Shown here piece by piece: positions 17,101 to 29,669 of a DNA stretch of 64,000 nucleotides. The stretch is from a virus. Its lineage: Duplodnaviria > Caudoviricetes. Numbering within the stretch: the first letter of the stretch is position 1; each line of letters begins with the position of its first letter. The notes beneath the pieces were generated by a model that ran no database searches, was not told where the DNA came from, and worked only from the letters and a program-made list of their open reading frames with translations. The stretch spans positions 14,219-78,218 of IMG/VR virus record IMGVR_UViG_2773857766_000003; one strand, written 5' to 3'. The position numbers and the translations under genes were made by a program.

Positions 17101-18388
17101 CTTCCGCCGCGGGCGCAGCTTCGGGCCGCGGTGCCGCAGCACCGGCCGCTTCCTCGGGCGTCTCGCCGATGGCCTCCAGCTCCTCCTCTCGCGCGGCGGC
17201 ACGCTCCACGCGCTCGGCCAGCACCGCCCGTTCGACCTTCTGCTCTTCGCTCAGGCCCACGCTGCCGTCGATGACCTCCAGCTCCGCCAGCCGCGTGACA
17301 GCCGCGGCCGTGTCGGCAGCGTCAGCCGCCGGGCCCGAGCGGCGCGCCGGCTGGTCCGGCAGCGAGTCGGGGAGCATGTCTTCCGCAGGCGTGCCCGCCT
17401 CTGCTGGTGGCGTGCCCTCTTCCGTCTTCGCAGCGGCGGCATCACCGCGGCGCAGCGCGGTCATAGCGCCCGACACGCCCGCGCCCGGCGCCGAACCGAT
17501 GGCCGTTTCCACGGCTGTGCGGCCTACGTTCCGGGATAGCGGCCGCTGGTCGATGTCGCTGGCCTGGTAGTTCGTCGCGACCTGGGGCAGCACCTCCTCC
17601 GCCTGCTCGCCCAGCAACTCCGCCGCCACCGAGCGCGCCCCGGCCGCCAGCCCGCCACGGGCGCCGCCGCCGCCCACCACGGCGTGCTCAAGCCCGATCT
17701 TCCCGGACAGGAAGCCGGTGGCCGCGCCAACGGCGGCCGGAATGCGCGAGCGCTCAAGCGCCATGCGCTCCGCCTCCTCGCGGCTATGGCCCTTCTTCAC
17801 GAGCGCGTCGCGGATGTCCTCGAAGGCCTCGCCCCGGGCTCCACCAGCATTGAGCACGGCATTGGTCACGCCCGCCGCCGTGGTGGCCGTGCCCGCCGCG
17901 ACGGCCGCGCTGGCGCCGCCCGCGAGACGCGCGACCTGCGCCGCCTTGGCCGCGGCCACGCCCGGGAGCATGCTGGGCAGGTTGGTGGTGACGAACCGCG
18001 CCGCCAGCGCCGGATCGCTGCTGTAGGCCTTCGCGGCGGCCACGGCCTGGTCCACGATGGAATCCTGGTTCGCCTGCGCGATCTGGGCGTCCGCGTCGGC
18101 GACCTTGCGGCGCAGGGCCTCGCTCTGCTCCCCGCGCCAGTGGTCGGCATTGTCCCGGAAGAAGGACGCAACCCCGGACTGCGGCGCGAACAGGTTGGGC
18201 ACAGCCCCGGCGATGTTGTTCACGCCCTCGGCCAGCTGCACCACGGTATCGGTCGCTGCCTCGCCCCAGGTGCGCTCTGCGGGCTTCTTGGGCTGGGGCC
18301 TGAAGCCGGCCATCTCGAAAAGGTCGGAGCCGCCGCCGGCCGCAGCATCGCCATCACCTCGCGCCATCGCGAGCAAATCCTGGGACAT
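8183..18388 (-). CDS. Large polyvalent / DarB-DdrB-like injected protein, 3401 aa
   Basis: QNRDR (DdrB/ParB-like), FKKWFGDSKV..MYRG (ART-like), TGWHRGVDGRWRFEISD (LPD23-like), two HExxH-type motifs, C-terminal LPD38-like region; start at MSQDLL after a GAGG RBS. Confidence 0.9.
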   Translation of the reverse strand: MSQDLLAMARGDGDAAAGGGSDLFEMAGFRPQPKKPAERTWGEAATDTVVQLAEGVNNIAGAVPNLFAPQSGVASFFRDNADHWRGEQSEALRRKVADADAQIAQANQDSIVDQAVAAAKAYSSDPALAARFVTTNLPSMLPGVAAAKAAQVARLAGGASAAVAAGTATTAAGVTNAVLNAGGARGEAFEDIRDALVKKGHSREEAERMALERSRIPAAVGAATGFLSGKIGLEHAVVGGGGARGGLAAGARSVAAELLGEQAEEVLPQVATNYQASDIDQRPLSRNVGRTAVETAIGSAPGAGVSGAMTALRRGDAAAAKTEEGTPPAEAGTPAEDMLPDSLPDQPARRSGPAADAADTAAAVTRLAELEVIDGSVGLSEEQKVERAVLAERVERAAAREEELEAIGETPEEAAGAAAPRPEAAPAAEAAQPGDASAAGASQDGSQLQQELRAVAQRSSGDTRRNAVELLARLEGGGMPAHVQRFVEREAAELVATAQAAPAEAAGAAPGAAAAPTAPDRLTPQERQEFERAYRRPVADPLGELQDRVRAGSAYTQAGDVQQLRDQLEDAWLELNVATETQQPAAAPAQIDGEAIHRVDAQLRTRRIRDALQNLLDEDVGNTVQIVGRLDGALEKIGEPGLDDGERQAVRRVADAYFGFRGARERSPLPKPVERAEDWGADNSSMEALIQERGAPRARSRDRSGYAPAAESARSTAAAPAVDAFDPGAVRAKTWPQFVAERGENVARLRRGSPAWDRLQNEWAAVKTKRAGTNPEGTGAVGAATPEIQNRDRARPASVVQMQGMAQSPDYMRLGPSRSPETGAPMVFAVGDQVHAAHAIGRGDTAVMSDGQRVPFQYAVMEAGDVQPSNFADGGVNPLFDAAHPGTVKALNNGRTAGLRAAYERGTADSYRQELMADSAMHGIDPQVIAGMRAPMLVRLYSERDNQANMGAKSQSQALGLSAAEQAATDAALLDTGVLDVLEAGDLAGAANRDFARAFVGKLQAEGQDVAGMLDAGGALSPAGVVRLQAALVHRAYSDGDLVESMFGSTDNDIRAIGEALKDVAGEWANLRQAAAAGAVNPQVDVTGNLLQAIRLVQKARRERASLYDAINQVDMVTGDVPDPMTVGVLRMLYSGQYLTRAVGRDRLADSLREYMAAALATRAGGDMFGEQVGPDAILSALSGQPTTQTTNAASPQPSGQSAPAAPQGERGAPGRDPAGRGADEPGQQARRPEPDRAGPRPDEDGGRGEGQDAQDPRGQPDGQGDRGAAEDGRGAVAPDLELSSYTPREVTAREDAQQESAQARAKADAKADADARAERERREVSARMEASAENFELGEDADDALSGQRPMFSRAAAPESEAFKKWFGDSKVTESGKPGGRPLVMYRGSPNENAAPSRPGALIFLSPDPAFAEHYAAGGATYPLYVKAERPFDASRGEGLALWRKYAEETGAASWATSGTERGALPVWQQEPELRKWLDRAGVQYDGIWFAESNGGASLAVLAQAQVKSATGNIGTFDPSNPDIRFSFAGRNARSADLGELERAEAMARSGMSSAVIQQETGWHRGVDGRWRFEISDDTAEFRRAETRPEDLVEVERQVREAATVTQDDELHTAQLDEGDGVLRAYSTTREGALANLVDRVARARFGVEFDIAKVKDGQVEALTDVLRHPALFAAYPFLRGLKVYFRRGRDAREFGSYDETHRAVTLNADRAPGEVLSTLLHELQHAIQYREGFALGGNMDADFTSSVRKTLREMAEGEARAVEAWKAKHPDLMENAEKAAAVVRDALMYESMERLLSYSERDKPSGVFRLIRNEMQWIYNTTHWLDPVAVELQRRFYGMPKSGAKRNAYIRDMAFDAQKWLRSTIAPENLAAFKADERTMKGMIGALRRHADKARAALEPLREQEGRARVAEALERKFEFGSPYDIYRSLAGEVEARTTQARQGLTEAERRARPVQADMDVSPAEAIVVVGGHEMRLPDVQQDRGAPGPADDFDVDAFLRTMQEAPAVPDEAKAQAVARTESAAAAIRSAWANGPEVVVAFDMADPKVPQQVRDADLSQRSRGAGGSPEGFYFGGKVYLLAEQLPRDQDVARVLMHEALGHHGLAGVFGSGLDAVLQQLVQARPAEVRRKAAEYGLDYGDRAQRMQAAEEVLAEMAQARPELGFVQRAVAAVRSWARAHIPGFADLRMTDAEIVRDFILPARGWVERGRQADAAPAAAGGAPALAFSLPADALAQARAKWAGLVDQFVRGGLDETKTYEVLPSSTAVMKMLGLPDLPAHAGVHAMDALYNHGVKPSQMKQILDELANPRMVMVWNKGSRGDASLNFVTSMSNPQGQPFVIAIKPNRGSVKGRFHWVATVTEKQPRAILDMVREGGAMYAGEGAIAGISEAEMREALRFAKEKRGKEARGLMQAIGTSYSLPNLVQRVLYAKDLEAFKGEQAGPAMFSRAPAGAAQAAQPAQGLLARLQDRVRQLTSPEAVDSWLYNWQDKFIDLKRIQDQIKALNGTVSETNDAYRGEELYHKRVAKRTANFLRDEVRPLLAAMNDAKVGMEEFERFLHARHAPEANRVLAERNPSKQELDQKRADAAKTVADLRRQLQHARASGSVISGIQRSLGLAMAEADRWNSAEAFKGTEEDRLSLSGMSDAEAKNVMGGYSPEQRKVMDALATRVDRMNNITLQTLEQYGLMDRLSIEAWRKTYQHYVPLHRDEARPDSKAHPIGQGFSTKGDASKRRTGSNEKVTNILSHLVMQREAALTRGEKNNVMKRLYVLAAQNPDESLWSLELPKKKAIDPDTGLVRTMPDIGARLRDNVLTLRIGGKDKHIIFNERNERAARLALAMKNLDATELDRFTRTMGHLTRWFAAVNTQYNPIFGVLNLARDVQGSLLQLSSTPLAGRQREVFKNIRSNMLDIYRDLRRERRESGAGQGPWARLWEQLQLDGGTTGYRDLYTKPEDRAAALRKALERQGEGGAKAMVRGVGEWLSDFNETLEASTRLATYKAALDAGQSREAAASLAKNITVNFNRKGRNTSVVGSYYAFLNAAIQGNVRMLETLAGPAGRKVMAGGVALGMLSGLAGALIMGGGGADDEWKKIPDFVKERSIIIPLSRQDYVAIPMPLGFHVFPNIGRKLVEFGMHDDPTKSRAGHLADMAMIALNAYNPLGGADNIMQMLAPTPFDPVVALMENKDWTGRQIYKEQRSGLDPKPGHAMGKDSVTPPARWVARLINDATGGNEWQPGKWSPNPDALEYLFGQFTGGVGRELTKAGNMVTAAVTGEELAPHQITLAGRFYGNTRGVNGQSTSYYENLKRVNTSMAEARGRVARGEEAEAVLLDVPLARVDGAASALDKRVSDLVKMRRQIQAGSDPNKRELVKEVNAEIERSMYLLNKAVEDVLAEQRGR

Positions 18389-18419
18389 AGACACACCTCT
18401 GAAGTGAACCCTGGAAGGC

Positions 18420-18434
18420 TGGCAGGCTTGGCAC
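18420..18434 (-). promoter_or_regulatory. Late-gene motif copy 1 (GTGCCAAGCCTGCCA)
   Basis: One of 8 copies, upstream of the giant gene. Confidence 0.8.
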
Positions 18435-18494
18435 GCAGCCCGTCGATAGGGGTCTGATACAGTTCCCGCGCACGAAAACTCAGGGGGAAGCAAG

Positions 18495-19225: not shown

Positions 19226-20785
19226 TTATTTTGAAATGCCCTGCTTCTGCAGTTCCTTGATTACCTCGTCCACCGTCATGCCATATTTTTTGGCCGTGGC
19301 GTCGAGGTTTTCCTGAGACATGGCATTTCGCACCTGGGCCTTGACAGCGTCGCCGGCTTGGCGCGAGGCGCGGTCTTTCTGGACCTTCGCGCGATTGAAA
19401 CGCACCAGGCCCTCGTCTGTGTCCCGGATGGAGGGGTTGTCCGCCATGAATTCCTGGAACTCCTGTTCCGCGGCCGGGTTCCGCTTGACCTTCTCCTTCC
19501 CAGAAAGCGGGTCGGTGGACGTTTCTCCGAACGCCTTCTGCACTTTGGTGGGGTCGTAGTCGTACTTCAGCTTGGAAGTGTCCGAGCCAGGGGTTTGCAG
19601 GATGCCCGCACGCACCGCGCGCAGTTGGGTCGGCGTCATCTTCGGATCGGTCTCCCGTGCCAGCGCCTCGCGCACGTCGCGAAGTTCGCGCTTCTCAGCC
19701 AGGCGCTCACCCCGGTCAGCCATGGCCAAGCCGTGCGCCGCCGCCGCCCGGCCGTCGGCGTTGTCGGCTCGGCGATCAGCATTGTCCGCGCGGGCCTCAG
19801 CGCGCAGCCGCAGTTGGTTCAGCAGCTCGTGCTGGCTGTATTGGTAGAGCGCCATCGGATCGTCCAGCGCCTTCAGCATGGCCAGCGCCTCGCCGCGGTC
19901 TTTGAGCGTGATAGGCGGCATCGGCTTCCCGTCCAGCCCCGTGCGCTGCACCAACAGCTGCCCGTCCTTCCCCGCCTCGATGCCCGTCACCTTATCGCCG
20001 CTGGGCACGAACCGGTTGTAGACGTCGGCCAGCTGGGTGTAGTCGCCCGCAGCCAGCGCCGCGGCGGCCTTCCCTGCAGCCTCCTTGCGGGCCGCCGCCT
20101 GCAGCTGGATCTGGATGTGACTCTGCGCCATGTGGTCCTTGGCCGCTTGATCCGCTTCCTTGGCATAGCCCGCCTGAGCAAGCGCCAGTGCGCGTTCCCG
20201 CGTGTTCGCCAGGTAGTCGTCCGCCGTGGCTTGCCGCGGTTGACCATCCGGGCCCACGAGAGCCTGCTTCAGCTTCGCCCCCATCTCCGCGTCGATCCGC
20301 TCCACGCCGTCCTCGCGCGCCCACTGTTTCTCCTCTCGCCCCTGCTTGCGCGCGGCGAACAGCCCCTGCTGCGCCTGCAGGCTCATTTGCAGGCCGCGGG
20401 CAGGATCGGTCCGACCGATGGCGTCCGCCATTGCCCGCATACGCAGGTTGTCCTGCTGATCGCGGCCCATGCTGCCGGCAGTACGCTCGCCCAAGAAGTC
20501 GGTGACGCCCTGCATGGCCACCGTCCGGGCCTCGCCGGCCGAGTTCTTCGCCACATAGGCCTTCGCGCCGTCATCGAATGTGATGTTGTCGAAACCCTGC
20601 TTCGCCAGACTTTCCAGCTGCTGGCCCTGGTCTGCCGTGAAGCCTGTAGATTCCACGGGCCGCGCGCTCGCCACTTCATCAAGCGCACGCTGCTGCTGTG
20701 CCTGCTGGAACTGCCCGTGGAAGTTCTGAAAAATCTGCTGGCCCTGCAGGATACCTGCCGCCAGTCCGCCGCGTGGTGCTGCCAT
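19226..20785 (-). CDS. Probable DNA-ejection/internal virion protein
   Basis: Ala/Gln-rich helical 519 aa next to the giant protein. Confidence 0.7.
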   Translation of the reverse strand: MAAPRGGLAAGILQGQQIFQNFHGQFQQAQQQRALDEVASARPVESTGFTADQGQQLESLAKQGFDNITFDDGAKAYVAKNSAGEARTVAMQGVTDFLGERTAGSMGRDQQDNLRMRAMADAIGRTDPARGLQMSLQAQQGLFAARKQGREEKQWAREDGVERIDAEMGAKLKQALVGPDGQPRQATADDYLANTRERALALAQAGYAKEADQAAKDHMAQSHIQIQLQAAARKEAAGKAAAALAAGDYTQLADVYNRFVPSGDKVTGIEAGKDGQLLVQRTGLDGKPMPPITLKDRGEALAMLKALDDPMALYQYSQHELLNQLRLRAEARADNADRRADNADGRAAAAHGLAMADRGERLAEKRELRDVREALARETDPKMTPTQLRAVRAGILQTPGSDTSKLKYDYDPTKVQKAFGETSTDPLSGKEKVKRNPAAEQEFQEFMADNPSIRDTDEGLVRFNRAKVQKDRASRQAGDAVKAQVRNAMSQENLDATAKKYGMTVDEVIKELQKQGISK

Positions 20786-22137
20786 TACTCCGCCTCCGAA
20801 AGTTCGTCGTCCAACTCCTGCATCCGCCGCGCCAGTTCAGCGCGGATCGTTTGCAGGCCAATCCTGTATTCCGGCAGCACCTCGGGGTGCCGCTGCTTGA
20901 GATATGCGGCCTTGCCGTCGTCCCACCACGCCGTGCAGTGCAGGCACTCTGGGGCGCTGATCGCCCGGAAGGTGTCGTACACCGGACTGCGCGGCGCGCC
21001 CACCTGATCGAGGTAGGCGAACACGTCGCCGTGGCTCCAGTCCAGCAGCGGCAGCAGCACGTCGTAGTGCTCGGTGGCGCCCACGGCGGGCACGCGGCCG
21101 GTGTCGGCCCGCTTCGTGCCGCGGATCACCAGGTCGATGCCGTCGGCCAGCATGCGCTCGTGCATCGGAAGCATGAGGTTGTGCCAGCAGCAGTCCATCC
21201 GCCCGACCAGAGCGACATCGCTCATGCTGTACTGGCGGCCGATCCAGCCGGATTGCGCGGTTGTCACGTCGCTGGGCATGCCGTGGGTGGCCTTCCACGC
21301 CAGGACATCCGCATGGATGACCCGGAAGTCCGGCACCCACGCTCGAGCCTCCTCTACCACTTCAACCGTCTCGGGGATCGTGTCGCCCGTGTGCGTCCAG
21401 TACACCGGCAGCCCCAGCTCCACGAAGGGGCGCAGCAGGAGCAGGCAGGCCTGCGAGTCCTTCCCGCCCGAGAACTGCAGGGCAGCACGGCGGCCGCGGA
21501 AAGCGTGGCCACGATCGCCGAGCCGGAACACCGCCACGCTGTGGTCGAAGCGGCCGAACACCGGAAGCGCGCCGGCCACCGTGGGGCCGGGCGCTCGGTG
21601 CTCATCCTGAAGCGCCACCACCAGATCGAACCCCACCAGCTGCGCCCACAAGCTGACCTCGGGGAAGGAGGCCAGGCGGTAGCCCAGCACCTCGCGGGCC
21701 AGGGTCTGCTCCTCGTGGCGCGCGGCGTACAGCTCATGGAGCACCAACTGCCCGCCGGGGGCCAGCAGCCGGGCCGCCTCTTCCAGCACGGCCACCGGAT
21801 TGCAGTAGCCCAAAGCGTAGGCCACCACCACCGCGTCCGCTCGCCCGGCCGGCAGCCCCGTCGCCACCATGTCGGTAGCAACGACCTCCGCCCAGTCGGG
21901 CGCCTGCGCCAGCTGCCAGTGATCGACGTTCACCAGCGTCCAGTGCAGGTCCGGCCGCACGGGCCGGCACAGCTCGGCCAGCCGGCCCGTGCCGCAGCCC
22001 AGGTCAACCACAAGAGCGCCGCGCGGGAGGGCCAGCAGGCGCAGTAACTCGGCTGCATGCTCCGGCTCGCTCTCGGCGAGGCGCCAGTAGGCCAGCAGCT
22101 CGACGCCCTCGGCGTTCAGGATTTGTTCGGGCCGCAT
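20785..22137 (-). CDS. Class I SAM methyltransferase fused to a PAPS-reductase-family (PP-loop) domain
   Basis: VVDLGCGTG (SAM motif I); LQFSGGKDS PP-loop; PLLDWS; CLHC; start MRPEQ follows the upstream stop. Confidence 0.88.
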   Translation of the reverse strand: MRPEQILNAEGVELLAYWRLAESEPEHAAELLRLLALPRGALVVDLGCGTGRLAELCRPVRPDLHWTLVNVDHWQLAQAPDWAEVVATDMVATGLPAGRADAVVVAYALGYCNPVAVLEEAARLLAPGGQLVLHELYAARHEEQTLAREVLGYRLASFPEVSLWAQLVGFDLVVALQDEHRAPGPTVAGALPVFGRFDHSVAVFRLGDRGHAFRGRRAALQFSGGKDSQACLLLLRPFVELGLPVYWTHTGDTIPETVEVVEEARAWVPDFRVIHADVLAWKATHGMPSDVTTAQSGWIGRQYSMSDVALVGRMDCCWHNLMLPMHERMLADGIDLVIRGTKRADTGRVPAVGATEHYDVLLPLLDWSHGDVFAYLDQVGAPRSPVYDTFRAISAPECLHCTAWWDDGKAAYLKQRHPEVLPEYRIGLQTIRAELARRMQELDDELSEAE

Positions 22138-22139
22138 CG

Positions 22140-23006
22140 TCAGATCGCGATCGCTGCGGAAACACCGATGCCCAGCATCGCGCCCGTGTTGGCGCCGGCC
22201 GTGGCCTGGCTCTGCTGGTGCGCCTGGCTCTGCGCGGACCATGCGTTGGTCGCCGAGTTGGTCGCGGCGTTCGCCGCCCCGGCGGCCTGACCGTAGCCGG
22301 CATTGAGCCCCGCAAGCCCCGTATTCGCGATGGTCTGCCCGGCTGCGCCGTAGCCCGCCGTGGCAGCGGTGGTCTGCATACCCATGGTGGGGTAGCCGGC
22401 CAGGGCGTTGCTCGCGCGATCGGTCAACGCGCGGCCCTCCGCGCGGGCGGCGGTGCGCGCCCCGTTCTTGGCCTGGGCGAGCGCGAGCCCCGTCTGCGCC
22501 ACCAGCGCATTGCCCGCGGCACCGTATTTCCCATCCGCAGGGTTGATGCCCATGCGCGACATCTCTGCGGCCTGGGTGCGCTGCGCGCCGGTGTAGGCCT
22601 GCGACACGTCCGCCGCGGCTTGGCCGGCCAGCTCCTCGCGCTTCGCCTCCGTGTTGAAGGTCGCCGCGTCTTGGATCATCCGGTCCTGCTGGCCGGTCAG
22701 CTGGTCGCGACGGCCCAGCGCGTAATCGCGGTCTGCCTGAGACTGCTCCCAGGCCTTGCGCGAGGTGTCCAGCGCGAACTGGGTCTGCTCCTTCTGGAGC
22801 GGAGCCATGTCGTTCGTGTTCTGGATGATCTGCCGGACCATATCGTCCTGCACGCCCAGGTTTCGCACCTGAGCCTCCACCAGCCGCGGATCGGGCGCGG
22901 GCGTGCCGCCACCCTTGCCGCCCTCCAGGGACATGCCTCCGCCGGCCCGGGGCCGGAAGGCCCGGTCCGGAAGGAGGTCGAAATCAGTTCGATGCCAGCG
23001 AGACAT
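22140..23006 (-). CDS. Probable ejection/pilot protein
   Basis: GGKGGG near the N-terminus, Ala/Gln/Gly-rich, hydrophobic C-terminal end. Confidence 0.7.
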   Translation of the reverse strand: MSRWHRTDFDLLPDRAFRPRAGGGMSLEGGKGGGTPAPDPRLVEAQVRNLGVQDDMVRQIIQNTNDMAPLQKEQTQFALDTSRKAWEQSQADRDYALGRRDQLTGQQDRMIQDAATFNTEAKREELAGQAAADVSQAYTGAQRTQAAEMSRMGINPADGKYGAAGNALVAQTGLALAQAKNGARTAARAEGRALTDRASNALAGYPTMGMQTTAATAGYGAAGQTIANTGLAGLNAGYGQAAGAANAATNSATNAWSAQSQAHQQSQATAGANTGAMLGIGVSAAIAI

Positions 23007-23415
23007 ACCTGCAATCCTTCTTCCACATCACGTACAGAATTACGTCGCCGCCGTCGGGCGCCGCGCCACGCAGCCGGGCCTCGGGCCGCCATCCCAGGTG
23101 TTCGTTCAGGCGCCGGGCCGCCAGGTTGTTCGCGTTCACGTAGCCGCTGATGCGCTCACACCCACACACGAGGAAGGGGTAGGCGAAGCCGGCCCGCAGG
23201 AACTCGCGTGTCATCCAGCGCGCGCCGGGCGCGCCGGCCAGGTGGACCCATAGGTTCCGGCCGTTGAACCCCTCGTACACGGCGCCGGCCACCAGCACGC
23301 CGTCGCGACGCAGCCCGATCGCCCGCTGGCCATCGCATGTGGCGAAGCCCGGGATGCGCTCGCGCATGAAGGGCAGCACCGCCTCGATGTCGTATTCCAG
23401 CGCGTGAACAGTCAT
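22984..23415 (-). CDS. GNAT-fold virion-associated protein
   Basis: N.AARRLNEHLGW..E GNAT motif; usual podovirus position before the ejection genes. Confidence 0.8.
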   Translation of the reverse strand: MTVHALEYDIEAVLPFMRERIPGFATCDGQRAIGLRRDGVLVAGAVYEGFNGRNLWVHLAGAPGARWMTREFLRAGFAYPFLVCGCERISGYVNANNLAARRLNEHLGWRPEARLRGAAPDGGDVILYVMWKKDCRYVSLASN

Positions 23416-23440: not shown

Positions 23441-23457
23441 GGAGCCCAGAAACAACA

Positions 23458-23478
23458 AAGCCCGCGGAAGCGGGCTTT
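23458..23478. terminator. Intrinsic terminator downstream of the ParA-like gene
   Basis: AAGCCCGC-ggaa-GCGGGCTT with A/T tails. Confidence 0.8.
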
Positions 23479-23495
23479 GCGAAGCGGAAAGCTAC

Positions 23496-24536
23496 TTATA
23501 GGACGGCAGCCAAATACTCCAGTTCCTTGCGGTACTTGGTTTGTGATTGATTTACCTGCAGACGACTACCGTTAACAGTGTGGAACTGTCCTACCTTCAA
23601 TTTTGGAATGGGAATACCTTCTGCCCCACTGATGCGACCTGCAGACATGAAGTCGTCGGTGATTACGAAAGCATCGGCCGGATCTTCCACGTCGAACAGA
23701 TGTGGATACTTGGCCGCGGTGCCATACGCACGTTCCACATACATTTGCGATGCGCGGTCTTTGACCCCTTTTTTAGGACTCCGGGCGCCCACCATTGTCA
23801 TAACAATTGCCGCGACCTTGGGAGTTTCCATGCCACCGGCCCTCGCCCCCCAGACGTTAAAGTCGCTGGCAGGGTTTGAGAGCATGTCAAGCGTGATATC
23901 TAAAGACTCGATTGAGTGCTCGTCCACACGGACAGGGATGATGAGCGCGTCAGCGGCGCACCATGCCAGATGAGTACCGCCGCCATAGAAAGGGCTGCAA
24001 TCCATCAGAATCTTGCTGCAACTCTTCGATTCTGCCTCGTCGTTCAACACACCTTTCAGGCTCAGTAGGATGTTTCTCACGGCTTTTTCATTGCTCGACG
24101 CCATGGCCTGCTGGAGCTGCTGATATAGCGCAGAGGGGAAGGAAAAAAGCTGCCCATCGCCCGGCACAAAATACCCGGATTTAGCCCCTTTAAAATGATC
24201 GTTGAAGTTGCTAATACGGTAAGAAATATCCTCCGGAACTTCTCCAAATGCAGGACCCAGCACCTTTGGGCGCAGTGCATCGCCAATTGTGATTTCCGCT
24301 TTCTGACCGCGCATCAGAGATTCGGTCAAGTTCTTTTGTGGACACAGGTCAGCAACCAACGTGGCGTAGTGACGGGTGAAAAGCCATGCCAAGTTGAAAC
24401 TGAGAGTGGATTTACCAATGCCTCCGCGGAGATTTGAAACAGCGTACGAACGCCGCCCAAACTTCACAACTGCTTCGTAGCCCTCTTCTATCGACTGGTC
24501 ATGGTTGGCAATGATTCGGCTCAGTCCAGATCCCAT
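23496..24536 (-). CDS. Orphan ParA/Soj-family ATPase moron
   Basis: NLRGGIGKST deviant Walker A, ADLCPQKNLT, ILMDCSP, ADALIIP; visibly lower GC than flanks. Confidence 0.9.
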   Translation of the reverse strand: MGSGLSRIIANHDQSIEEGYEAVVKFGRRSYAVSNLRGGIGKSTLSFNLAWLFTRHYATLVADLCPQKNLTESLMRGQKAEITIGDALRPKVLGPAFGEVPEDISYRISNFNDHFKGAKSGYFVPGDGQLFSFPSALYQQLQQAMASSNEKAVRNILLSLKGVLNDEAESKSCSKILMDCSPFYGGGTHLAWCAADALIIPVRVDEHSIESLDITLDMLSNPASDFNVWGARAGGMETPKVAAIVMTMVGARSPKKGVKDRASQMYVERAYGTAAKYPHLFDVEDPADAFVITDDFMSAGRISGAEGIPIPKLKVGQFHTVNGSRLQVNQSQTKYRKELEYLAAVL

Positions 24537-24548
24537 AAAAAATTCCCC

Positions 24549-24667
24549 GCAGGTCGTTGAAGATGCTGCAGGTTACAAAAAATCTCGCAGGACGTCAACT
24601 TTTCCGCAGGCCGTCACGAAAGCTGCAGGTCGATCTAAAAAGTGCAGGCCTTTGACAGGTCAGCAGA
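24549..24667. repeat. Phased array: GCAGG every 19 bp
   Basis: GCAGG at 24549, 24568, 24587, 24606, 24625, 24644 and GCAGA at 24663. Confidence 0.92.
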
Positions 24668-24727
24668 TGAAGGCGGCTTGCGGTTGGGCCAAAGTACAGT
24701 CCGAAAGCGCTCCAAGCCATTCCTTCC

Positions 24728-25168
24728 TCATGACTCGAACGGTGCTACCGGCCACTCGATCGCGCGCGGGTCGCCCTGCCCCGTCACATCGCGCAGCGCC
24801 TGCCGGTAGTCCAGCCAGGCCTGTCGCATGTCGGCCGGCGTGGGCGCGTCAGGCAGCACCCGCCAATCGCACGCGCGCAGGAGCTCGTCCCGCCGCGCAC
24901 GCACGTAGCCCCACAGCTCGGCCGCGTCTGGCACCCACTCCAGGCGCCCGAAGTCGAACGCGTGACCCTGCCCGGGCCACGGAGGGAATGGCACAGGCGC
25001 CCCGGCCGTGTGGCTCCAGTAGTGCGTCATGGGAAGCACGTCGGCGCCCACCGCCACCCACCCGCTCGGCGCTCCCATGCCCACCGGCACGTCGGCAATG
25101 CGAAAGATGGTCGCAAGGTCCGGGCAGCCCGGTACATCCCGCAGCTCGGCGCAGCGGCGCTGGTTCAT
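24728..25168 (-). CDS. Tail fibre assembly chaperone
   Basis: RARRDELLRACDW..LPDAP..W.DYRQALRDV..Q..WP signature. Confidence 0.85.
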   Translation of the reverse strand: MNQRRCAELRDVPGCPDLATIFRIADVPVGMGAPSGWVAVGADVLPMTHYWSHTAGAPVPFPPWPGQGHAFDFGRLEWVPDAAELWGYVRARRDELLRACDWRVLPDAPTPADMRQAWLDYRQALRDVTGQGDPRAIEWPVAPFES

Positions 25169-27096
25169 CGCTTTCCTCCTGTGGCGGTAATGGTGGTGCG
25201 TGCCACGGTCAATTGTTGATTTGCACCGGGCCCGTAGTTCGGGCTCACCACCTCGATGTCGTAGAAGTGGGTGCCATCCCACCATGGCGCGTCGAAGCCC
25301 ACCACGAAAATCTGCGATGTCCACCCCCCGCGCATGGACGTGGCTGCGTGCGTGATTCGGGCGCCGTTACGGCGCAGGTACACCACCACGCTGGCATCGC
25401 CTCCCAGGGGATTCACCTCGGCGTAGGCCGACAACGTGACGCCCGACGAGTTCGCCGGCATGGCGAGGTAGATCCCCGCCCCACCAGAGCTGCCACCGCC
25501 CGGCACCACGAAACTGCCTGACTCTCCGAACGACATGGCCGTCACGGCCCCGCCCTGCACCTGCAGCGTGCCGATCGCGGCGTTGCCGATGTAGGCTGTG
25601 CCGATCGCGGCGGTGTCCATGAAGACGCCGATGTTGTTGCTGGTGATGCGCTGCAGGCGGTTGATGAAGTCGGAGGTGCCCATCACCGAGCCATCGGGGA
25701 AGGTCACCGTTTCCCCGATCCGCGCCGCGTCGCGCCGCGCCAACGTGCCGAGCCCGCCGACCTGGGCAGCCTGCAGGTTGCGCAACCACTGGGCGTCCAT
25801 GCCGTTGGCCGACAGGATGATGTTGCCGGCGCTGTCGCGCACCGTGAGCCCCCGCGTGTCCACCTTGCGCGCCGCCACCGTACCGTCCACCAGTAGGTCG
25901 CCGCTCAACACCGCACCGGGAATGGCCCAGTAATACCCCATCCAGTGCCTGGTCTGGGTGAACGCGCCGCCGTCGGTGATGGTGACGGCATCGCCCACCT
26001 GCAGGTGGTTGTTGTTGGGTGCGCTGCCGCCGTTGCCCAAGGCCTGCCAGACAGCCTGCCGGGCCGTGGCGTCGCTCCAGTAGCTGCCGCTCGCGGACAG
26101 CAACACCGAGCCCCGCATGCCGTCGGCGAGCGTACGGCCCTGCCCATCCACGCGCAGGTTGCCCTTCACATAGACGTTGTTCTGCAGGTAGATCCCATTG
26201 CCGTCCACGCCGAACACCACGTCCTGCGGCCGCGGCGTGCGCAGCAGCCCCCCGCTGTAGTTCGGCGCCACCACAGCGAACTTGTCGGCCATGATGATGA
26301 AGGCGCTGGTGGTCTGGCCGTTGCGCTCCTCGGCGGCGATCCCGAAGCCGGCCAGCGCGCCGCCGGCCTGCACCTTGAGCGTGTACTGCGCGCGCAGCCC
26401 GTCCGAGTAGCTGGCCAGCACGGTCATCTCCTGCTCCAGGCTCGCGCGCCCGGGCGTGCCGTCGCGGTAGTAGCGCCCGAGCGAGGCCTGCAGCTGCAGC
26501 ACGTTGGTGGCCATGGCGCGCTGCCCGTCGCTCCAGGCCGCCTGCGTGGCGCGGATGCCGGCGCTGGCCTGCTGCAGGCTGGCAGTCACCTCCCGCACCT
26601 GGCGCGCGAAACTGCGTTCGTTCGTCTGCACGATGGTCTGCAGGTCGCGCACCTCCGCGCCGCGCTTGGCGGCCTCGTCGGCAATCGAGCGCACCAGCTC
26701 GTCCCGGATCTCCTTCGCCAGGTGGTCGAACCGCGTGGGATCGTCCAGCGTCTTCGCGAGCGAGCGGAACAGGGCCGAGTCGATGATGGCCTGGGCGAAG
26801 CGGTCGATCTGCACCGTGGCCGACAGCCCCCCGCCCAGGTCGATCAACGTTTCCCCCGGCCCGGGCTTGCGGTCCTGCTCGAGGATCTGCACTAACCCCT
26901 GCACGCCTCCCATGGCCTCGCGCAGCTCGCGCACCGTCACGCCGCGCTCGAATTCGTTGCCGCGCGAGCCGGCGCGCACCTCCAGGTGCTCCGTCACCGC
27001 CTTGGCCCAGTCGGTGAGGGCCTTGTCCTGGGCATTGAGGCGCGGCAGGGCCGGCAGCCGGGCCACACCCGTGTCGATCTTGCGGCTGTTTGTCAT
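25165..27096 (-). CDS. Tail tip/fibre protein (DUF1983-like)
   Basis: AQYTLKVQAGG..AGFG..SAFIIMADKFAV motif after a coiled coil. Confidence 0.82.
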   Translation of the reverse strand: MTNSRKIDTGVARLPALPRLNAQDKALTDWAKAVTEHLEVRAGSRGNEFERGVTVRELREAMGGVQGLVQILEQDRKPGPGETLIDLGGGLSATVQIDRFAQAIIDSALFRSLAKTLDDPTRFDHLAKEIRDELVRSIADEAAKRGAEVRDLQTIVQTNERSFARQVREVTASLQQASAGIRATQAAWSDGQRAMATNVLQLQASLGRYYRDGTPGRASLEQEMTVLASYSDGLRAQYTLKVQAGGALAGFGIAAEERNGQTTSAFIIMADKFAVVAPNYSGGLLRTPRPQDVVFGVDGNGIYLQNNVYVKGNLRVDGQGRTLADGMRGSVLLSASGSYWSDATARQAVWQALGNGGSAPNNNHLQVGDAVTITDGGAFTQTRHWMGYYWAIPGAVLSGDLLVDGTVAARKVDTRGLTVRDSAGNIILSANGMDAQWLRNLQAAQVGGLGTLARRDAARIGETVTFPDGSVMGTSDFINRLQRITSNNIGVFMDTAAIGTAYIGNAAIGTLQVQGGAVTAMSFGESGSFVVPGGGSSGGAGIYLAMPANSSGVTLSAYAEVNPLGGDASVVVYLRRNGARITHAATSMRGGWTSQIFVVGFDAPWWDGTHFYDIEVVSPNYGPGANQQLTVARTTITATGGKR

Positions 27097-29669
27097 AACC
27101 CGCGCAGTTCCTCGGAGGTGGAGCACAGCACCACGGACGTGACGCGTGCGGCGCTCTGGATTTCTACCTGGTGCTCAAGCCAGCGCCCGGTCGGCAGGCG
27201 CTGGGGCTGCAGGTCCGTGAAGGTCGCCGTGTGCTGCAGCACGCCGTCGCCCCACAGGCGCAGCGTGACGGGGTGCGCTTCGTCCTGCTGGCCGTACACC
27301 TTCGCCCACGCGAGCGGCTGCTGGCGCGGCTGCGTGGCGATGCCCGTGCGCCACCGGCCCGCGCGGCCGGCCCCGCCCGTGAAGCACTCCAGGATGTCGG
27401 AGCCCCGAGCCAGGTACATCAGGTCGTTGAGCTTGTCCACCCACACGGCCGAGCCCGAGAGGTCGATGCGGCCCAGCTTCATCCCGTCCTGCATGTTGCA
27501 CGCAAGACAGCCCCCGCCCGCGCCAGCGTAGAACAGGTAGTAAACGCCCTCGTGCTCGGCTGCGAACATGCTGGCCGGCTGCATGGCCTGCCAGTCCTTC
27601 CGCGCGATCAGCTGCCGGGACACCACCTCCACGCCGCGGGCACTCGCCAGGCAGAGCCCGTCCGGAGAGGCGTAGAGCACGCCGCCCTGCACGCCCACCA
27701 CCGACCGCCGCGAGGCGCACGCCTGGTTGCTATCGAGCTTCTGGGCCGACATCGAGGCCGAGTGGGCACCGGTGACGAAGTATGGATTGCCGGCCGTGCC
27801 CACGAACAGGGTCTGGTCGAACACGGCCATGCCGACCACGGGGAATTCTGTCGTGACCTGGTACTCCACCGGCCAGGCATAGGGCACGTAGGGTTCGCAG
27901 AACGCCACCGTGTTGTCGATGAAGCCGGCCATGATCCCGTTGGGCATGCCCACCAGCCCGCGCAGATAGGGGTTCGCGCCCACGCTGGGCTTCAGCTCGC
28001 CGTCGAATTGCCCGTCCATCCGGTACGGCGGCGCGGCCCAGGTGAACTGCGGCTGCAGGCTTTCCAGCTCCTCGCTCGCCTTGTCGTCCAGGAAGGCCGC
28101 CACCGTGATGGGCATCTCTTGCACCAGTTGCCAGGCGGCGGCCGTGTCGCTGGTATTGCTGCGGTACAGCCGCCACTTCGCGATGAAGCGCTCTGCATAG
28201 CTCTCCCCCGTCATCAGGGCCGGCCGTTGAACGGTCACGGTGTCGTTCGCATCCGCCTCCAGCAACTCCGAGAGCGGCGACGGCTCCGACTCTTCACCCC
28301 AGTCGGTCACGAAGGCCACCACGTAGTAGCGCGAGGAAACCACGCGGTCCACCGTTTCGCCGGCCAGCTTCGCCACGCCGCCCAGCTTGTCCACCCAGGT
28401 GCCCACTACGGCCACGTCTTTGGTCAGGGCAGTGAACTGGCTGGCCAGCTGGGTCTGGATGCTCGCCACCAGGGTGGTACACCGCTGCTGGATCTCCACC
28501 AGCCGCGCATTCAGGCTCGCGGCCTGGGTGGATGCCGCGTCGCGGCCAGAGGTGTAGGCCTCCAGCGCAAGGTAGTAGGCCTCCAGGTCCTTGCGGTACT
28601 GCACCCAGGCTGCCGATTCCACGATATCGGTGCTGTCGCCGCCTGTGGACTGGTACTGCGGCACAGACGGTTCCTTCGGCCGCACGGGCGCGGAGGTGGG
28701 CGCGGCCCAGCTCTTCTCCAGCGCGAGCGTCGCGAACTCCTTCACCAGCTTGTCCAGCTCGGTGCGGGCGGCCGCGCACTCGGCGCCTGGGGCGGCGGCC
28801 TTCTCGGCGAGGTCGGCCACCTTGGCGGCCAAGTCGGCGGTCAGCACCGTCTCGCCCGCGCGCTCGCCCGCGGTGGCCGGGAATTCGTGCAGCTGCAGCG
28901 CCTCCACGAGCGCCGCGCGGCGCAGCGGGTAGCTCGCCGGCATGGCGGCCACCGGCACGGCCCAGCCCCCGCTGGTCTGGGTGGCGCCCAGTCGGGTCAT
29001 GTCCATCTCGGTGGCAGCCGCCCGCGCGGTGGTGATGATGGCGTAGAGGTTGCCCGGCGCCGCGCCCCCGCCCACGGCAGGGGATAGAGAGAGCCCGTAG
29101 TTCGACGTGGGTCCGGCGTAGGCCTTGCCCGAGGCGTCCCATCGCACGGCCTCCTGGTTGCCCTCGTGCTTCACGAACGTGGCGAGCAGGTCGTCCAGCA
29201 GCATCTGGGCGAAGTCACCATAGAGCCAGGTTTTCGCCTCCTCGGGCGTGAACTCGTCCACCACCTGCAGCTTCACGATCGGCTTCACTGGCCGCGGCAC
29301 GCCCAGCAGCCGGTCATTCCCGCGGGCGTCCACCACGCGCGGGCGAGCGCTGCCGTCGTCGGTGGTGCAGTAGGTTCGCTCCGTGGCCTCGTCGTTGATC
29401 TGGCCCTTCACGAATGAACGCTCGTCGGTATAGGAGCGGATGGGCGCGGCTGGATCCTTGACCACCTCGCCGTTCGCATTGCGCGCCATGCGGTGCAGCG
29501 TACGCGCGCCGGACACGCAGGCCGAGTGCCGGCGGTCGGCGGCCATGGGCCAGAACTCGCCGCTGGGCAGGAAGAGGTTTTCGTTCACCCGCGCGAAGTC
29601 ACTGCCCAGGGCGCGATCGGAAACGCTGGGGGCTTCGCCGCCGAACGCGGCCAGGCGGTAGATGGTCAT
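27093..29669 (-). CDS. Tail nozzle/stabilisation protein
   Basis: YVVAFVTDWGEESEPSP, FCEPYVPYAWP, beta-propeller-like C-terminus. Confidence 0.78.
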   Translation of the reverse strand: MTIYRLAAFGGEAPSVSDRALGSDFARVNENLFLPSGEFWPMAADRRHSACVSGARTLHRMARNANGEVVKDPAAPIRSYTDERSFVKGQINDEATERTYCTTDDGSARPRVVDARGNDRLLGVPRPVKPIVKLQVVDEFTPEEAKTWLYGDFAQMLLDDLLATFVKHEGNQEAVRWDASGKAYAGPTSNYGLSLSPAVGGGAAPGNLYAIITTARAAATEMDMTRLGATQTSGGWAVPVAAMPASYPLRRAALVEALQLHEFPATAGERAGETVLTADLAAKVADLAEKAAAPGAECAAARTELDKLVKEFATLALEKSWAAPTSAPVRPKEPSVPQYQSTGGDSTDIVESAAWVQYRKDLEAYYLALEAYTSGRDAASTQAASLNARLVEIQQRCTTLVASIQTQLASQFTALTKDVAVVGTWVDKLGGVAKLAGETVDRVVSSRYYVVAFVTDWGEESEPSPLSELLEADANDTVTVQRPALMTGESYAERFIAKWRLYRSNTSDTAAAWQLVQEMPITVAAFLDDKASEELESLQPQFTWAAPPYRMDGQFDGELKPSVGANPYLRGLVGMPNGIMAGFIDNTVAFCEPYVPYAWPVEYQVTTEFPVVGMAVFDQTLFVGTAGNPYFVTGAHSASMSAQKLDSNQACASRRSVVGVQGGVLYASPDGLCLASARGVEVVSRQLIARKDWQAMQPASMFAAEHEGVYYLFYAGAGGGCLACNMQDGMKLGRIDLSGSAVWVDKLNDLMYLARGSDILECFTGGAGRAGRWRTGIATQPRQQPLAWAKVYGQQDEAHPVTLRLWGDGVLQHTATFTDLQPQRLPTGRWLEHQVEIQSAARVTSVVLCSTSEELRGL

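What the first reader, a model, noticed from the sequence alone, without database searches (positions are those of the whole stretch)
23458..24727. Lone ParA-family ATPase preceded by a GCAGG array with exact 19-bp periodicity
Seen: GCAGG starts at 24549, 24568, 24587, 24606, 24625 and 24644, with GCAGA at 24663. The period is invariant while the 14-nt spacers all differ (tcgttgaagatgct, ttacaaaaaatctc, acgtcaacttttcc, ccgtcacgaaagct, tcgatctaaaaagt, cctttgacaggtca), several with A/T tracts. The array ends 12 nt before the ATG of a lower-GC 346-aa ParA-like gene that has its own terminator and sits inside the tail module. Its Walker A reads LRGGIGKST, with Arg at the signature Lys. Known: ParA partition ATPases need a ParB or RHH adaptor and a centromere; no adaptor gene is adjacent, and an integrase-encoding prophage does not need partitioning. 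Inference: a self-contained one-gene-plus-array module. 19 bp is about 1.8 helical turns, so the sites spiral around DNA, fitting a cooperative nucleoprotein filament. Alternatively the (CCUGC-N14)n leader RNA is a repeated ligand or antitoxin. Moron context suggests an undescribed defence or regulatory system.
Basis: partly seen in the sequence, partly recalled or inferred. Interest (0 to 1): 0.9.

Follow-up and report, generated by a model that had tools for sequence, protein, structure and literature searches.

The report
Solo ParA-like gene, phased CCTGC operator
A prophage carries a 1.3-kb one-gene cassette, an unusual ParA-type ATP-binding protein whose promoter region is a strictly spaced row of CCTGC boxes; the same gene-plus-boxes unit recurs across bacterial phyla, sits here in a slot where related phages carry anti-phage defence genes, and its function is still untested.

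Summary
In detail: six CCTGC boxes plus one TCTGC at exactly 19 bp, ending 12 nt before a 346-aa ParA-fold gene with Arg in the Walker A signature position and its own terminator. This scan found the cassette before on other DNA; I tested it again independently and added to it.

The pairing is family-wide. 37 of 38 homologue loci have at least 3 boxes upstream, spaced 19, 9, 28 or 38 bp (a lattice of about 9.5 bp). On a 94-protein tree, all 54 members of the window's clade carry CCTGC arrays. Sister clades carry other motifs on 28-29-bp periods.

No ParB or adaptor gene recurs beside it. The only recurrent neighbour is an IS1-type transposase.

In this phage lineage the cassette is a 1.3-kb insert (window 23443-24750) in a variable slot. 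0 of 25 relatives carry it, and two of the four with other cargo match TIR-type and PDC-M31 defence models.

New and unexplained: CCTGC lattices with variable spacers also occur in temperate phages that lack the gene (0 of 42 records hold it).

Best reading: a mobile, self-regulated accessory cassette whose own product binds the array. This is inferred, not shown. The function is unknown; exclusion or defence is plausible.

The parts
23443..24750 (-). The inserted cassette: low-G+C segment that is absent from the closest related prophages
   Evidence: Alignment to the empty-slot relatives L132 and L134 breaks at window 24748-24751 and resumes at 23442. G+C is 0.50-0.59 here against about 0.70 outside.
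24549..24667 (-). Array of seven boxes at exact 19-bp spacing (TCTGC, then six CCTGC), with non-conserved 14-nt spacers that are often T-rich
   Evidence: Family logo: A preferred before the box, CCTGC, A after it, T-rich at +9..+13.
24570..24598 (-). Inferred promoter inside the array: -35 TTGACG (24598..24593), 17-nt spacer holding one box, -10 TAACCT (24575..24570) overlapping the next box
   Evidence: My own hexamer scoring gives 8 of 12 matches. The same TTGACG-17-TA[AG]CCT arrangement occurs in the close relatives L002, L003, L005, L006 and L085. The tool's stricter scan found no promoter here, so this is inference only.
23496..24536 (-). CDS of 346 aa: ParA/Soj-fold ATPase with Arg-type deviant Walker A (RGGIGKST), a 30-residue N-terminal helix and about 95 residues beyond the Soj core
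   Evidence: AlphaFold2 model pLDDT 83.5. VIA-align Z 23.9 to McdA 6non_A (rmsd 2.7, 248 aligned) and Z 23.5 to H. pylori Soj.
23455..23480 (-). Intrinsic-terminator-like hairpin closing the cassette
   Evidence: 11 pairs, 7 of them G-C, followed by a T-rich tail.
24728..25324 (-). Upstream flank: tail-fibre assembly gene, whose last few codons are replaced by the insert
   Evidence: PHROG 4912 at 2.2e-16. Homology to relatives ends at 24748-24751, before the stop codon.
22984..23415 (-). Downstream flank: acyl-CoA N-acyltransferase-like gene (the other edge of the slot)
   Evidence: PHROG 4470 at 1.7e-45. Used to find 25 related phage loci.

Best explanation
The cassette is a self-contained, horizontally mobile accessory ('moron') unit. 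One gene for a ParA/Soj-fold ATPase, with an Arg-type deviant Walker A, is expressed from its own promoter, and that promoter is embedded in a row of CCTGC boxes set on a lattice of about 9.5 bp (spacings of 9, 19 or 28 bp).

The most likely mechanism is that the protein itself, probably as ATP-dependent dimers that line up cooperatively, occupies the boxes. In the window these lie upstream of the -35, inside the spacer, over the -10 and at about +10. Binding there would repress the protein's own transcription, so the array acts as an autoregulatory operator.

What the protein does in trans is not known. Its positions in prophages make a lysogen-expressed exclusion or defence role the leading guess.

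Shown: the anatomy, the family-wide gene-array linkage, the quantised spacing, the clade-specific motifs, the lack of a recurrent partner gene, the insertion into a variable slot, and the ParA fold. Inferred: promoter position, binding by the gene's own product, repression, and any defence role.
For: (1) The array is real and beyond chance.

(2) Gene and array travel together. 37 of 38 full-length homologue loci from many phyla have at least 3 boxes on the coding strand within 300 bp upstream. Totals are 217 boxes upstream, against 25 on the opposite strand there and 25 in 300 bp downstream.

(3) Spacing is quantised: 19 bp 112 times, 9 bp 41 times, 28 bp 8 times, 38 bp 3 times, out of 180 intervals. 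Spacers are not conserved.

(4) On a 94-row tree the window's clade (54 rows, SH-aLRT 99) is 54 of 54 CCTGC. A sister clade carries CGACA-N3-TGTCG palindromes on a 28-bp period (9 of 10 rows), one row carries TCTGC on 29 bp, and further clades carry GGTCAAG-type or TAGTTTT inverted repeats. The motif label needs 14 changes on the tree against a shuffled mean of 36.1 (0 of 200 shuffles as low).

(5) There is no recurrent adaptor. Of 100 immediate neighbours, the IS1 DDE transposase occurs 14 times and every other Pfam family at most 4 times.

(6) Boxes lie in or next to the best promoter candidates, for example TTGACG-17-TAACCT in the window and five close relatives, and TTGCAC-17-TATAGT in L027.

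(7) The fold is ParA/Soj/McdA, Z 23-24. Walker A GK[ST] and the Asp residues at positions 63 and 179 are invariant across clades.

(8) It is accessory cargo. It is a 1.3-kb insert in a slot that is empty in 17 of 21 relatives. Two of the four other cargos match defence models: 2TM-TIR plus 1TM-TIR, and PDC-M31A/B at 1e-102. In E. coli A41 a homologue lies directly downstream of the cI-type repressor gene. In Ralstonia phage RsoM1USA a homologue lies beside attP.
Against: No experiment and no computation here shows that the protein binds the boxes. It has no recognisable sequence-reading domain: only a 14-residue N-terminal helix and insertions in the ParA core.

Clade-specific residues are scattered rather than clustered along the sequence.

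Motif and protein are inherited together, so their agreement on the tree is expected from descent alone, whoever binds the boxes.

The window's promoter is weak (8 of 12 hexamer matches) and the tool's own scan reports none. Across the clade only 5 of 54 loci reach 9 of 12.

CCTGC lattices also occur in phages that lack the gene. So another factor might read the boxes, or the boxes may have a role beyond autoregulation.

PADLOC has no model for the protein, and the defence reading rests on location only.
Confidence: 0.55

Rival explanations
1. One-protein partition module: the array is a centromere, and the ATPase both binds it and rides the nucleoid, stabilising whatever replicon or excised element carries it.
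For: The ParA/Soj fold. An iteron array upstream of the gene, as in type Ib and type II par loci (recalled knowledge). The cassette rides in 3.1-3.2-kb IS1-type units that could land on plasmids.
Against: The cassette sits in integrated prophages and chromosomes. Only 5 of 72,556 plasmid records hold a relative at E <= 1e-30, all at 36-37% identity, and in the two of these records that I opened each carries a separate small parA with an 80-aa gene beside it. All 5 E. coli copies are chromosomal. No second array was seen in the 9-kb neighbourhoods or in the 64-kb window.
Confidence: 0.1
2. The boxes are read by some other protein (a host factor, or a product of the carrying element), and the ParA-like gene is merely regulated cargo.
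For: Orphan CCTGC lattices exist in 42 viral records that lack the gene (0 of 42; the positive control found it in 5 of 5). A small ORF ending ...EIAKKAAAKRW lies next to arrays in a minority of loci, and next to one orphan array.
Against: The cassette works as a unit in Pseudomonadota, Actinomycetota, Verrucomicrobiota, Planctomycetota, Myxococcota and a Peptococcaceae MAG, so no single host factor is likely. The motif changes with the protein clade. The small ORF is found in only 9 of 94 loci by motif, or 10 of 36 by BLAST cluster, in varying position and strand, and it is absent from the window.
Confidence: 0.15
3. The repeats act as RNA: a (CCUGC-N14)n leader that is a ligand, decoy or antitoxin for the protein.
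For: In the window, one or two boxes would lie in the 5' UTR if the inferred promoter is right. Read-through from the tail-fibre assembly gene would transcribe the whole array.
Against: There is no fold beyond shuffles (z +0.63; 151 of 200 shuffles fold at least as well) and no Rfam family above its threshold. In several homologues the best -10 hexamer follows the last boxes, so most boxes would not be transcribed from the cassette's promoter. Sister clades use DNA-type palindromes.
Confidence: 0.03

Closest known systems
Type Ib plasmid partition loci with an upstream repeat centromere-operator (TP228 parFG-parH, pB171, pSM19035 delta/omega, pTAR parA)
   Same: A small ParA without an N-terminal HTH domain. 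An array of short direct repeats spans the promoter of the ATPase gene. The array is expected to give autoregulation. The group is described in passages of PMC3235114.
   Different: Those loci encode a small ParB/RHH adaptor that binds the repeats and represses (PMC3235114 passages). Here no adaptor recurs, the element is an integrated prophage or an IS, the protein has about 95 extra residues, and Arg replaces the signature Lys. I recall that pTAR ParA itself binds its repeats; PMC101871 is not held, so this could not be checked.
R1 parC / pSK41 parC segrosome arrays (type II par)
   Same: Phased iterons flank or cover the par promoter, set on a lattice of about 10-11 bp or 20 bp that lets a protein scaffold wrap the DNA. 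This is recalled; only the title of the R1 parC paper was seen, in a reference list.
   Different: Those arrays are read by RHH ParR proteins and serve an actin-like ParM. Here the only cassette protein is a ParA-fold ATPase and the lattice is about 9.5 bp.
Type Ia ParA (P1 ParA, F SopA) as autorepressor
   Same: A ParA ATPase that itself binds its operator and represses its own operon (stated for type Ia in PMC3235114 passages).
   Different: [quoted passage not shown] This protein has only about 30 residues before the Walker A.
BcsQ (cellulose secretion regulator of the ParA/MinD class)
   Same: A ParA/MinD-fold protein. I recall that it also has Arg at the signature position. Structural match to BcsRQ at Z 17.1.
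   Different: Pfam CBP_BcsQ scores only 12.1 bits against a cut-off of 21.3, and no bcs genes appear among the neighbours.
Prophage exclusion cargo in fixed slots (lambda rexAB; BstA with its aba DNA element)
   Same: A lysogen-expressed single cassette in a variable prophage slot. A homologue lies downstream of a cI-type repressor gene in E. coli A41. The analogy of a cis DNA element paired with the protein gene (BstA/aba) is recalled.
   Different: There is no sequence or fold relation, and no phenotype has been tested.

Membership tests
ParA/MinD/Soj deviant-Walker-A ATPase superfamily | The Soj/MinD-type P-loop fold | tested here: met
   VIA-align Z 23.9 (6non_A, rmsd 2.7, 248 aligned) and Z 23.5 (6iub_A) over model residues 27-346. 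Foldseek E 2e-10 to Soj.
ParA/MinD/Soj deviant-Walker-A ATPase superfamily | Walker A GK[ST], plus the Walker A' and Walker B aspartates | tested here: met
   G41, K42, D63 and D179 are invariant in the 23-row alignment of distant relatives and conserved in all four clades.
ParA/MinD/Soj deviant-Walker-A ATPase superfamily | Signature lysine at the start of the deviant Walker A (KGGxxGK[ST]) | tested here: not met
   It is Arg (RGGIGKST) in 22 of 22 close homologues and in nearly all rows of the wider family. A distant subgroup keeps NNKGGVGKS.
Type I ParABS partition system | Adjacent ParB or RHH adaptor gene | tested here: not met
   None in the window: the flanks are the tail-fibre assembly and acyltransferase-like genes. 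Among 100 immediate neighbours of 53 clade members, no family other than the IS1 DDE transposase occurs more than 4 times.
Type I ParABS partition system | A cis-acting centromere that confers stable inheritance | not testable with these tools
   A repeat array is present, but centromere activity needs a plasmid-stability assay.
Type I ParABS partition system | Resides on a replicon that needs partition | tested here: not met
   The window lies in a provirus record. Relatives occur in 5 of 72,556 plasmids, all distant. All 5 E. coli copies are chromosomal.
Type Ia ParA (P1/F) | N-terminal HTH DNA-binding domain of about 100 residues | tested here: not met
   There are 36 residues before the Walker A, modelled as one helix at residues 3-16.
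Known anti-phage defence systems (PADLOC-DB 2.0.0) | Match to a defence protein model | tested here: not met
   0 families at E <= 1 for P0001. 0 for three mid-distance relatives; only P-loop-level hits at E >= 8e-5 for the K-type relatives.
BcsQ family | Pfam CBP_BcsQ or TIGR03371 above the curated cut-off | tested here: not met
   12.1 bits against a cut-off of 21.3. 27.4 bits against 157.85.

The most novel reading that the evidence does not exclude
The ATPase and the CCTGC lattice form a trans-acting recognition pair between competing mobile elements. The protein assembles on any DNA that carries the lattice. The copy over its own promoter sets its level. The 'orphan' lattices found in temperate phages of the same host groups (enterobacterial lambdoid phages, and Pseudomonas phages like phi297, JBD44 and D3) are then either its targets, giving silencing or exclusion of incoming phage DNA, or decoys that titrate it, in the manner recalled for BstA and aba.
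Probability: 0.2. Interest if true: 0.85.

Novelty: new variant of a known kind. Interest (0 to 1): 0.68.

Why it matters
ParA-type ATPases are understood as two-component machines: an ATPase plus a ParB-like or other partner. Here a widespread clade travels alone across at least six phyla, on prophages and IS1-type units. Each subclade carries its own strictly phased DNA array.

If the protein reads the array itself, it would be a ParA-fold sequence-specific DNA binder with no known reading domain, and a compact autoregulated expression module.

The cassette also occupies slots where related phages carry defence systems, and matching arrays exist in other phages that lack the gene. Together these make a concrete idea testable with a handful of standard assays: array-directed interference between mobile elements. 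I found no paper describing the family. The RsoM1USA paper only names its homologue as a ParA family protein (passage seen).

Tried and rejected
RNA evidence. 14 RNA-labelled runs hold the stretch. Four were laid, but all are contigs, so they show no start, end, strand or level. Contigs of three runs (three studies) bridge the gene, the array and both flanks. A fall in contig depth upstream of about 25500-25850 was seen in two runs. A fourth run, of another organism, had only three low-depth contigs inside the gene. None of this is used as evidence.

I used the search for related loci on metagenome contigs instead.

Dimerisation is therefore untested.

Specificity-determining residues. 29 positions are conserved in the CCTGC clade and differ in at least two other clades, but they are spread over the whole sequence. 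No reading head could be named.

Promoter tally. Only 5 of 54 clade members reach 9 of 12 hexamer matches, so I make no statistical claim about box positions relative to promoters.

Other dead ends:
- The ESM Atlas gave only ParA-type clusters.
- DNA homology between cassettes is confined to the CDS, and in one relative (L002) also 48 bp of the array, so no cassette ends could be defined.
- Megablast with the 97-nt orphan-array module hit mainly its 3' non-repeat part, so I give no prevalence figure for E. coli genomes or named phages.
- The control at period 18 saturated at 120 stretches. As 18 is a multiple of three it probably picks up coding repeats; I did not classify it.
- NCBIfam and Pfam have no model for the small ...AAAKRW ORF.
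- Supplementary files of papers were not consulted. The RsoM1USA ORF table may hold more on ORF57.

Considered and rejected: a CRISPR array (weak CRISPR-DR28 hit of 24.9 bits against 35, which lies on the terminator hairpin), a satellite or tandem repeat (the spacers all differ), and coding repeats (the array is intergenic in the window).
Full report
**Observation.** Read on the minus strand, window 24667-24549 holds TCTGC followed by six CCTGC boxes, each exactly 19 bp from the last. The 14-nt spacers are all different and often T-rich. A three-box pattern at this spacing matched four overlapping times and never in 100 dinucleotide-preserving shuffles. It is the only such array in the 78-kb provirus record that holds the window. 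The last box ends 12 nt before the ATG of ORF 23496-24536 (-), 346 aa. A terminator-like hairpin follows at 23480-23455. G+C drops to 0.50-0.59 from about 0.70.

**The protein.** Pfam AAA_31 and CbiA and PHROG 164 place it in the ParA class. NCBIfam partition models match only the P-loop region, far below their cut-offs. PADLOC gives nothing. An AlphaFold2 model (pLDDT 83.5) aligns over residues 27-346 with McdA (Z 23.9), H. pylori Soj (Z 23.5) and Thermus Soj (Z 23.0), with about 250 residues aligned. That leaves an N-terminal helix (residues 3-16) and about 95 residues of insertions. The Walker A is RGGIGKST. The Arg at the signature-Lys position is invariant in 22 of 22 homologues of 60-100% identity.

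**Family-wide linkage of gene and array.** The family is large: 1215 proteins at E <= 1e-10 among the candidates.

- A scan of one genome per species returned 45 loci from many phyla.
- I dropped nine whose match was partial or lacked 300 bp upstream (L017, L025, L031, L037, L040, L042, L044, L045, L046).
- Adding the window and Ralstonia phage RsoM1USA gave 38 loci.
- 37 of the 38 have at least three CCTGC boxes on the coding strand within 300 bp upstream. L012 has none.
- Box totals: 217 on the coding strand upstream, 25 on the other strand there, 47 and 48 inside the genes (coding and opposite strand), and 25 and 14 downstream.
- Of 180 intervals between successive boxes, 112 are 19 bp, 41 are 9 bp, 8 are 28 bp and 3 are 38 bp.

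The underlying lattice is therefore about 9.5 bp, not 19. The unit logo is A-CCTGC-A with a T-rich stretch at +9 to +13 and little else conserved. In a cluster scan of all loci then held and the 64-kb window, regularly phased arrays occur essentially only at this position.

**Motif changes with protein clade.** An exhaustive profile-free search gave distant full-length relatives of 25-47% identity. These share the architecture.

Their upstream regions carry other repeats:

- CGACA-N3-TGTCG palindromes on an exact 28-bp period: three intervals each in L069 and L070, one each in L075 and L117, and 56 bp in L066 and L074.
- TCTGC on a 29-bp period (L067).
- GGTCAAG / TTGACC[CT]GC dyads.
- In a low-G+C clade, a TAGTTTT...AAAACTA inverted repeat just after a good -10 hexamer.

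I built a tree of 94 proteins. 99 were detected by a Walker-A pattern, and five were dropped for length under 300 aa or under 150 nt of upstream DNA. L012 and L041 were not picked up by the pattern. On this tree the window's clade (54 rows, SH-aLRT 99) is 54 of 54 CCTGC, and the CGACA type fills 9 of 10 rows of another clade. All labels together need 14 changes, against 36.1 in shuffles (0 of 200 as low). Because the array and the gene are inherited together, this agreement does not prove who binds. It does show that the phased-repeat design is kept while the word changes, which is what a co-evolving protein-operator pair would give.

**No partner gene.** I took the nearest ORF on each side of 53 clade members, 100 proteins in all, and scanned them against Pfam. 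The IS1 DDE transposase occurs 14 times. HTH_3 and HTH_31 occur 4 times each and S24 peptidase 3 times. Everything else occurs twice or less. No ParB or RHH family recurs.

In five of five loci tested, 17-26-nt inverted repeats that are 3.07-3.20 kb apart enclose the transposase and the cassette, so it is a passenger of an IS1-type unit. A small ORF ending ...EIAKKAAAKRW belongs to these units: 10 of 36 loci by BLAST cluster and 9 of 94 by motif. Its position and strand vary, it has no family model, and it is absent from the window.

**The slot in this phage lineage.** Using the downstream acyltransferase-like gene I collected 25 related viral loci. None holds the ParA-like gene. In 21 of them both flanking genes are detectable. 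In 17 of those the two genes are 34-121 bp apart, and in four they are separated by 0.78-2.5 kb of other cargo.

- L136 carries two ORFs matching PADLOC 2TM-TIR (4.5e-23) and 1TM-TIR (1.1e-21).
- L152 carries PDC-M31A (1.1e-102) and PDC-M31B (8.6e-17).
- The ORFs tested in L133 and L150 match nothing.

Alignment to the empty-slot relatives puts the insert at window 23443-24750. It replaces the last few codons of the tail-fibre assembly gene.

Elsewhere, the homologue in E. coli A41 lies directly downstream of the cI-type (LexA family) repressor gene, with cro and cII divergent. 5 of 5426 E. coli genomes hold it, all on chromosomes. In RsoM1USA it lies between attP and the genome end. These are positions typical of lysogen-expressed accessory or exclusion genes; that last point is established knowledge, recalled.

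**Against a partition role.** Only 5 of 72,556 plasmids hold a relative at E <= 1e-30. All five are Aeromonas plasmids at 36-37% identity. The two records I opened each encode a separate 214-aa ParA with an 80-aa gene beside it.

**Against an RNA role.** The 144-nt leader folds no better than shuffles (z +0.63), and no Rfam family reaches its threshold.

**Promoter.** The tool's scan finds no consensus promoter. My own scoring finds TTGACG-17-TAACCT at 24598-24570 in the window. The identical layout occurs in five close relatives, and layouts such as TTGCAC-17-TATAGT, with two boxes in the spacer, occur in others. But only 5 of 54 loci reach 9 of 12 matches. That the array overlaps the promoter is therefore an inference.

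**An unexpected result: orphan arrays.**

Of the 80 loci listed, 16 are followed by the gene, 11 lie at a locus edge and 53 have no family gene in the locus.
- Ten of the 53 are true satellites with identical units.
- The other 43 have variable spacers, CCTGCA boxes, T-rich spacers and 9/19 spacing, like the operator.
- Their 42 viral records, 22 of them at least 90% complete, hold no family member at E <= 1e-5 (0 of 42). The same search found the gene in 5 of 5 control records.
- With the stricter CCTGCA x4 pattern, period 19 gives 62 stretches: 15 gene-linked, 37 orphan, 3 at an edge and 7 satellites. Period 20 gives 6, all satellites. Period 18 saturates.
- The 40 orphan and edge arrays fall into five sequence families of 33, 3, 2, 1 and 1. 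The looser scan adds a Pseudomonas type, among others.
- The largest family lies on the opposite strand inside a DUF551/EaA-like gene of enterobacterial lambdoid phages. There, three extra units (57 nt) keep the reading frame.
- Over 34 distinct sequences of this family the boxes are 100% conserved, the spacers 80% and the flanks 62-64%.
- The Pseudomonas type lies at the 5' end of phi297 gene 00066, downstream of the endolysin gene and near the integrase gene.

I cannot say whether these orphan arrays are relics, targets or decoys.

**Comparison with known systems.** The design is closest to type Ib and type II par loci, whose iterons span the par promoter. But those need an adaptor protein (PMC3235114, passages). 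In self-repression it resembles type Ia ParA, but it lacks that protein's DNA-binding domain. It is a member of the ParA/MinD superfamily by fold and catalytic residues, and departs from it at the signature Lys. It fails the tests for a ParABS system, for BcsQ and for any PADLOC family. Literature searches and the RsoM1USA paper (passage) gave no description of the family.

Earlier agents of this scan reported the same cassette on other genomes. I re-derived the linkage, the IS1 association and the repressor-adjacent position. I added the lattice statistics, the clade-specific operators, the slot analysis and the orphan arrays.

**Verdict.** This is a real, widespread and apparently undescribed solo ParA-like cassette with a phased operator. 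Self-binding and autorepression are likely but unproven. The function is unknown; exclusion or defence is the leading guess.

Noticed in passing
L160, L163, L166, L178, L190, L208, L214, L235 and others (type X); L165, L169, L175, L176, L184 and others (type Y); L177, L200 and L220; L179; L181; L182; L192 and L232; L241, L284 and L308; L304 and L307: Orphan CCTGC lattices occur in temperate-phage contigs that lack the ParA-like gene (0 of 42 records). They have variable spacers, 9/19-bp spacing and CCTGCA boxes. Type X lies in frame inside a DUF551/EaA-like gene on the opposite strand. Type Y lies at the 5' end of phi297 gene 00066, next to the lysis genes. In L304 the array is followed directly by a terminator-like hairpin.
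   Followed up: partly
L007:3580-6752, L009:3071-6228, L018:2770-5963, L022:2672-5923, L036:2812-5916: Units of 3.1-3.2 kb bounded by 17-26-nt inverted repeats (GGTAGTG...TCAGTTTGAA type). Each holds an IS1-type DDE transposase, the ParA-like cassette (in either orientation relative to the transposase) and a small ORF ending ...EIAKKAAAKRW.
   Followed up: partly
L179:2885-3118 (-) and L007:3594-3917 (+): The small ...AAAKRW ORF (47% identical between these two, E 7e-9) sits directly upstream of an orphan array in L179 and upstream of the array-plus-gene in L007. It matches no Pfam or NCBIfam family.
   Followed up: partly
L069, L070, L075, L117 (upstream of the gene); L067: Sister clades of the ATPase have ATCGACA-N3-TGTCGAT palindromes repeated every 28 bp, or TCTGC boxes every 29 bp, in place of CCTGC boxes.
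   Followed up: yes
L136:3010-3929 and L152:1711-3695: The same slot (between the tail-fibre assembly and acyltransferase genes) holds a 2TM-TIR plus 1TM-TIR pair in one related phage and a PDC-M31A/B pair in another. It is a defence hotspot of this phage lineage.
   Followed up: yes
L158 (Aeromonas plasmid AP022266.1) 2902-2989 and 2585-2625: A 5.9-kb plasmid carries a 36%-identical relative preceded by a TAGTTTTCC...GGAAAACTA inverted repeat. About 330 bp further upstream are six copies of an 11-bp-period repeat. The plasmid also has a separate small parA with an 80-aa gene beside it, and no annotated rep gene.
   Followed up: no
window 24728-24751: The insertion replaced the last few codons of the tail-fibre assembly gene, giving it a different C-terminus from the empty-slot relatives L132 and L134.
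   Followed up: partly
window 8183-18493 (-): A 3436-aa ORF lies downstream in the same prophage, together with a PAPS-reductase-like gene (20785-22242) and an internal-virion-protein gene (27093-29669). The latter's best named-phage relatives are podovirus-type phages at 28-40% identity over part of the protein.
   Followed up: no
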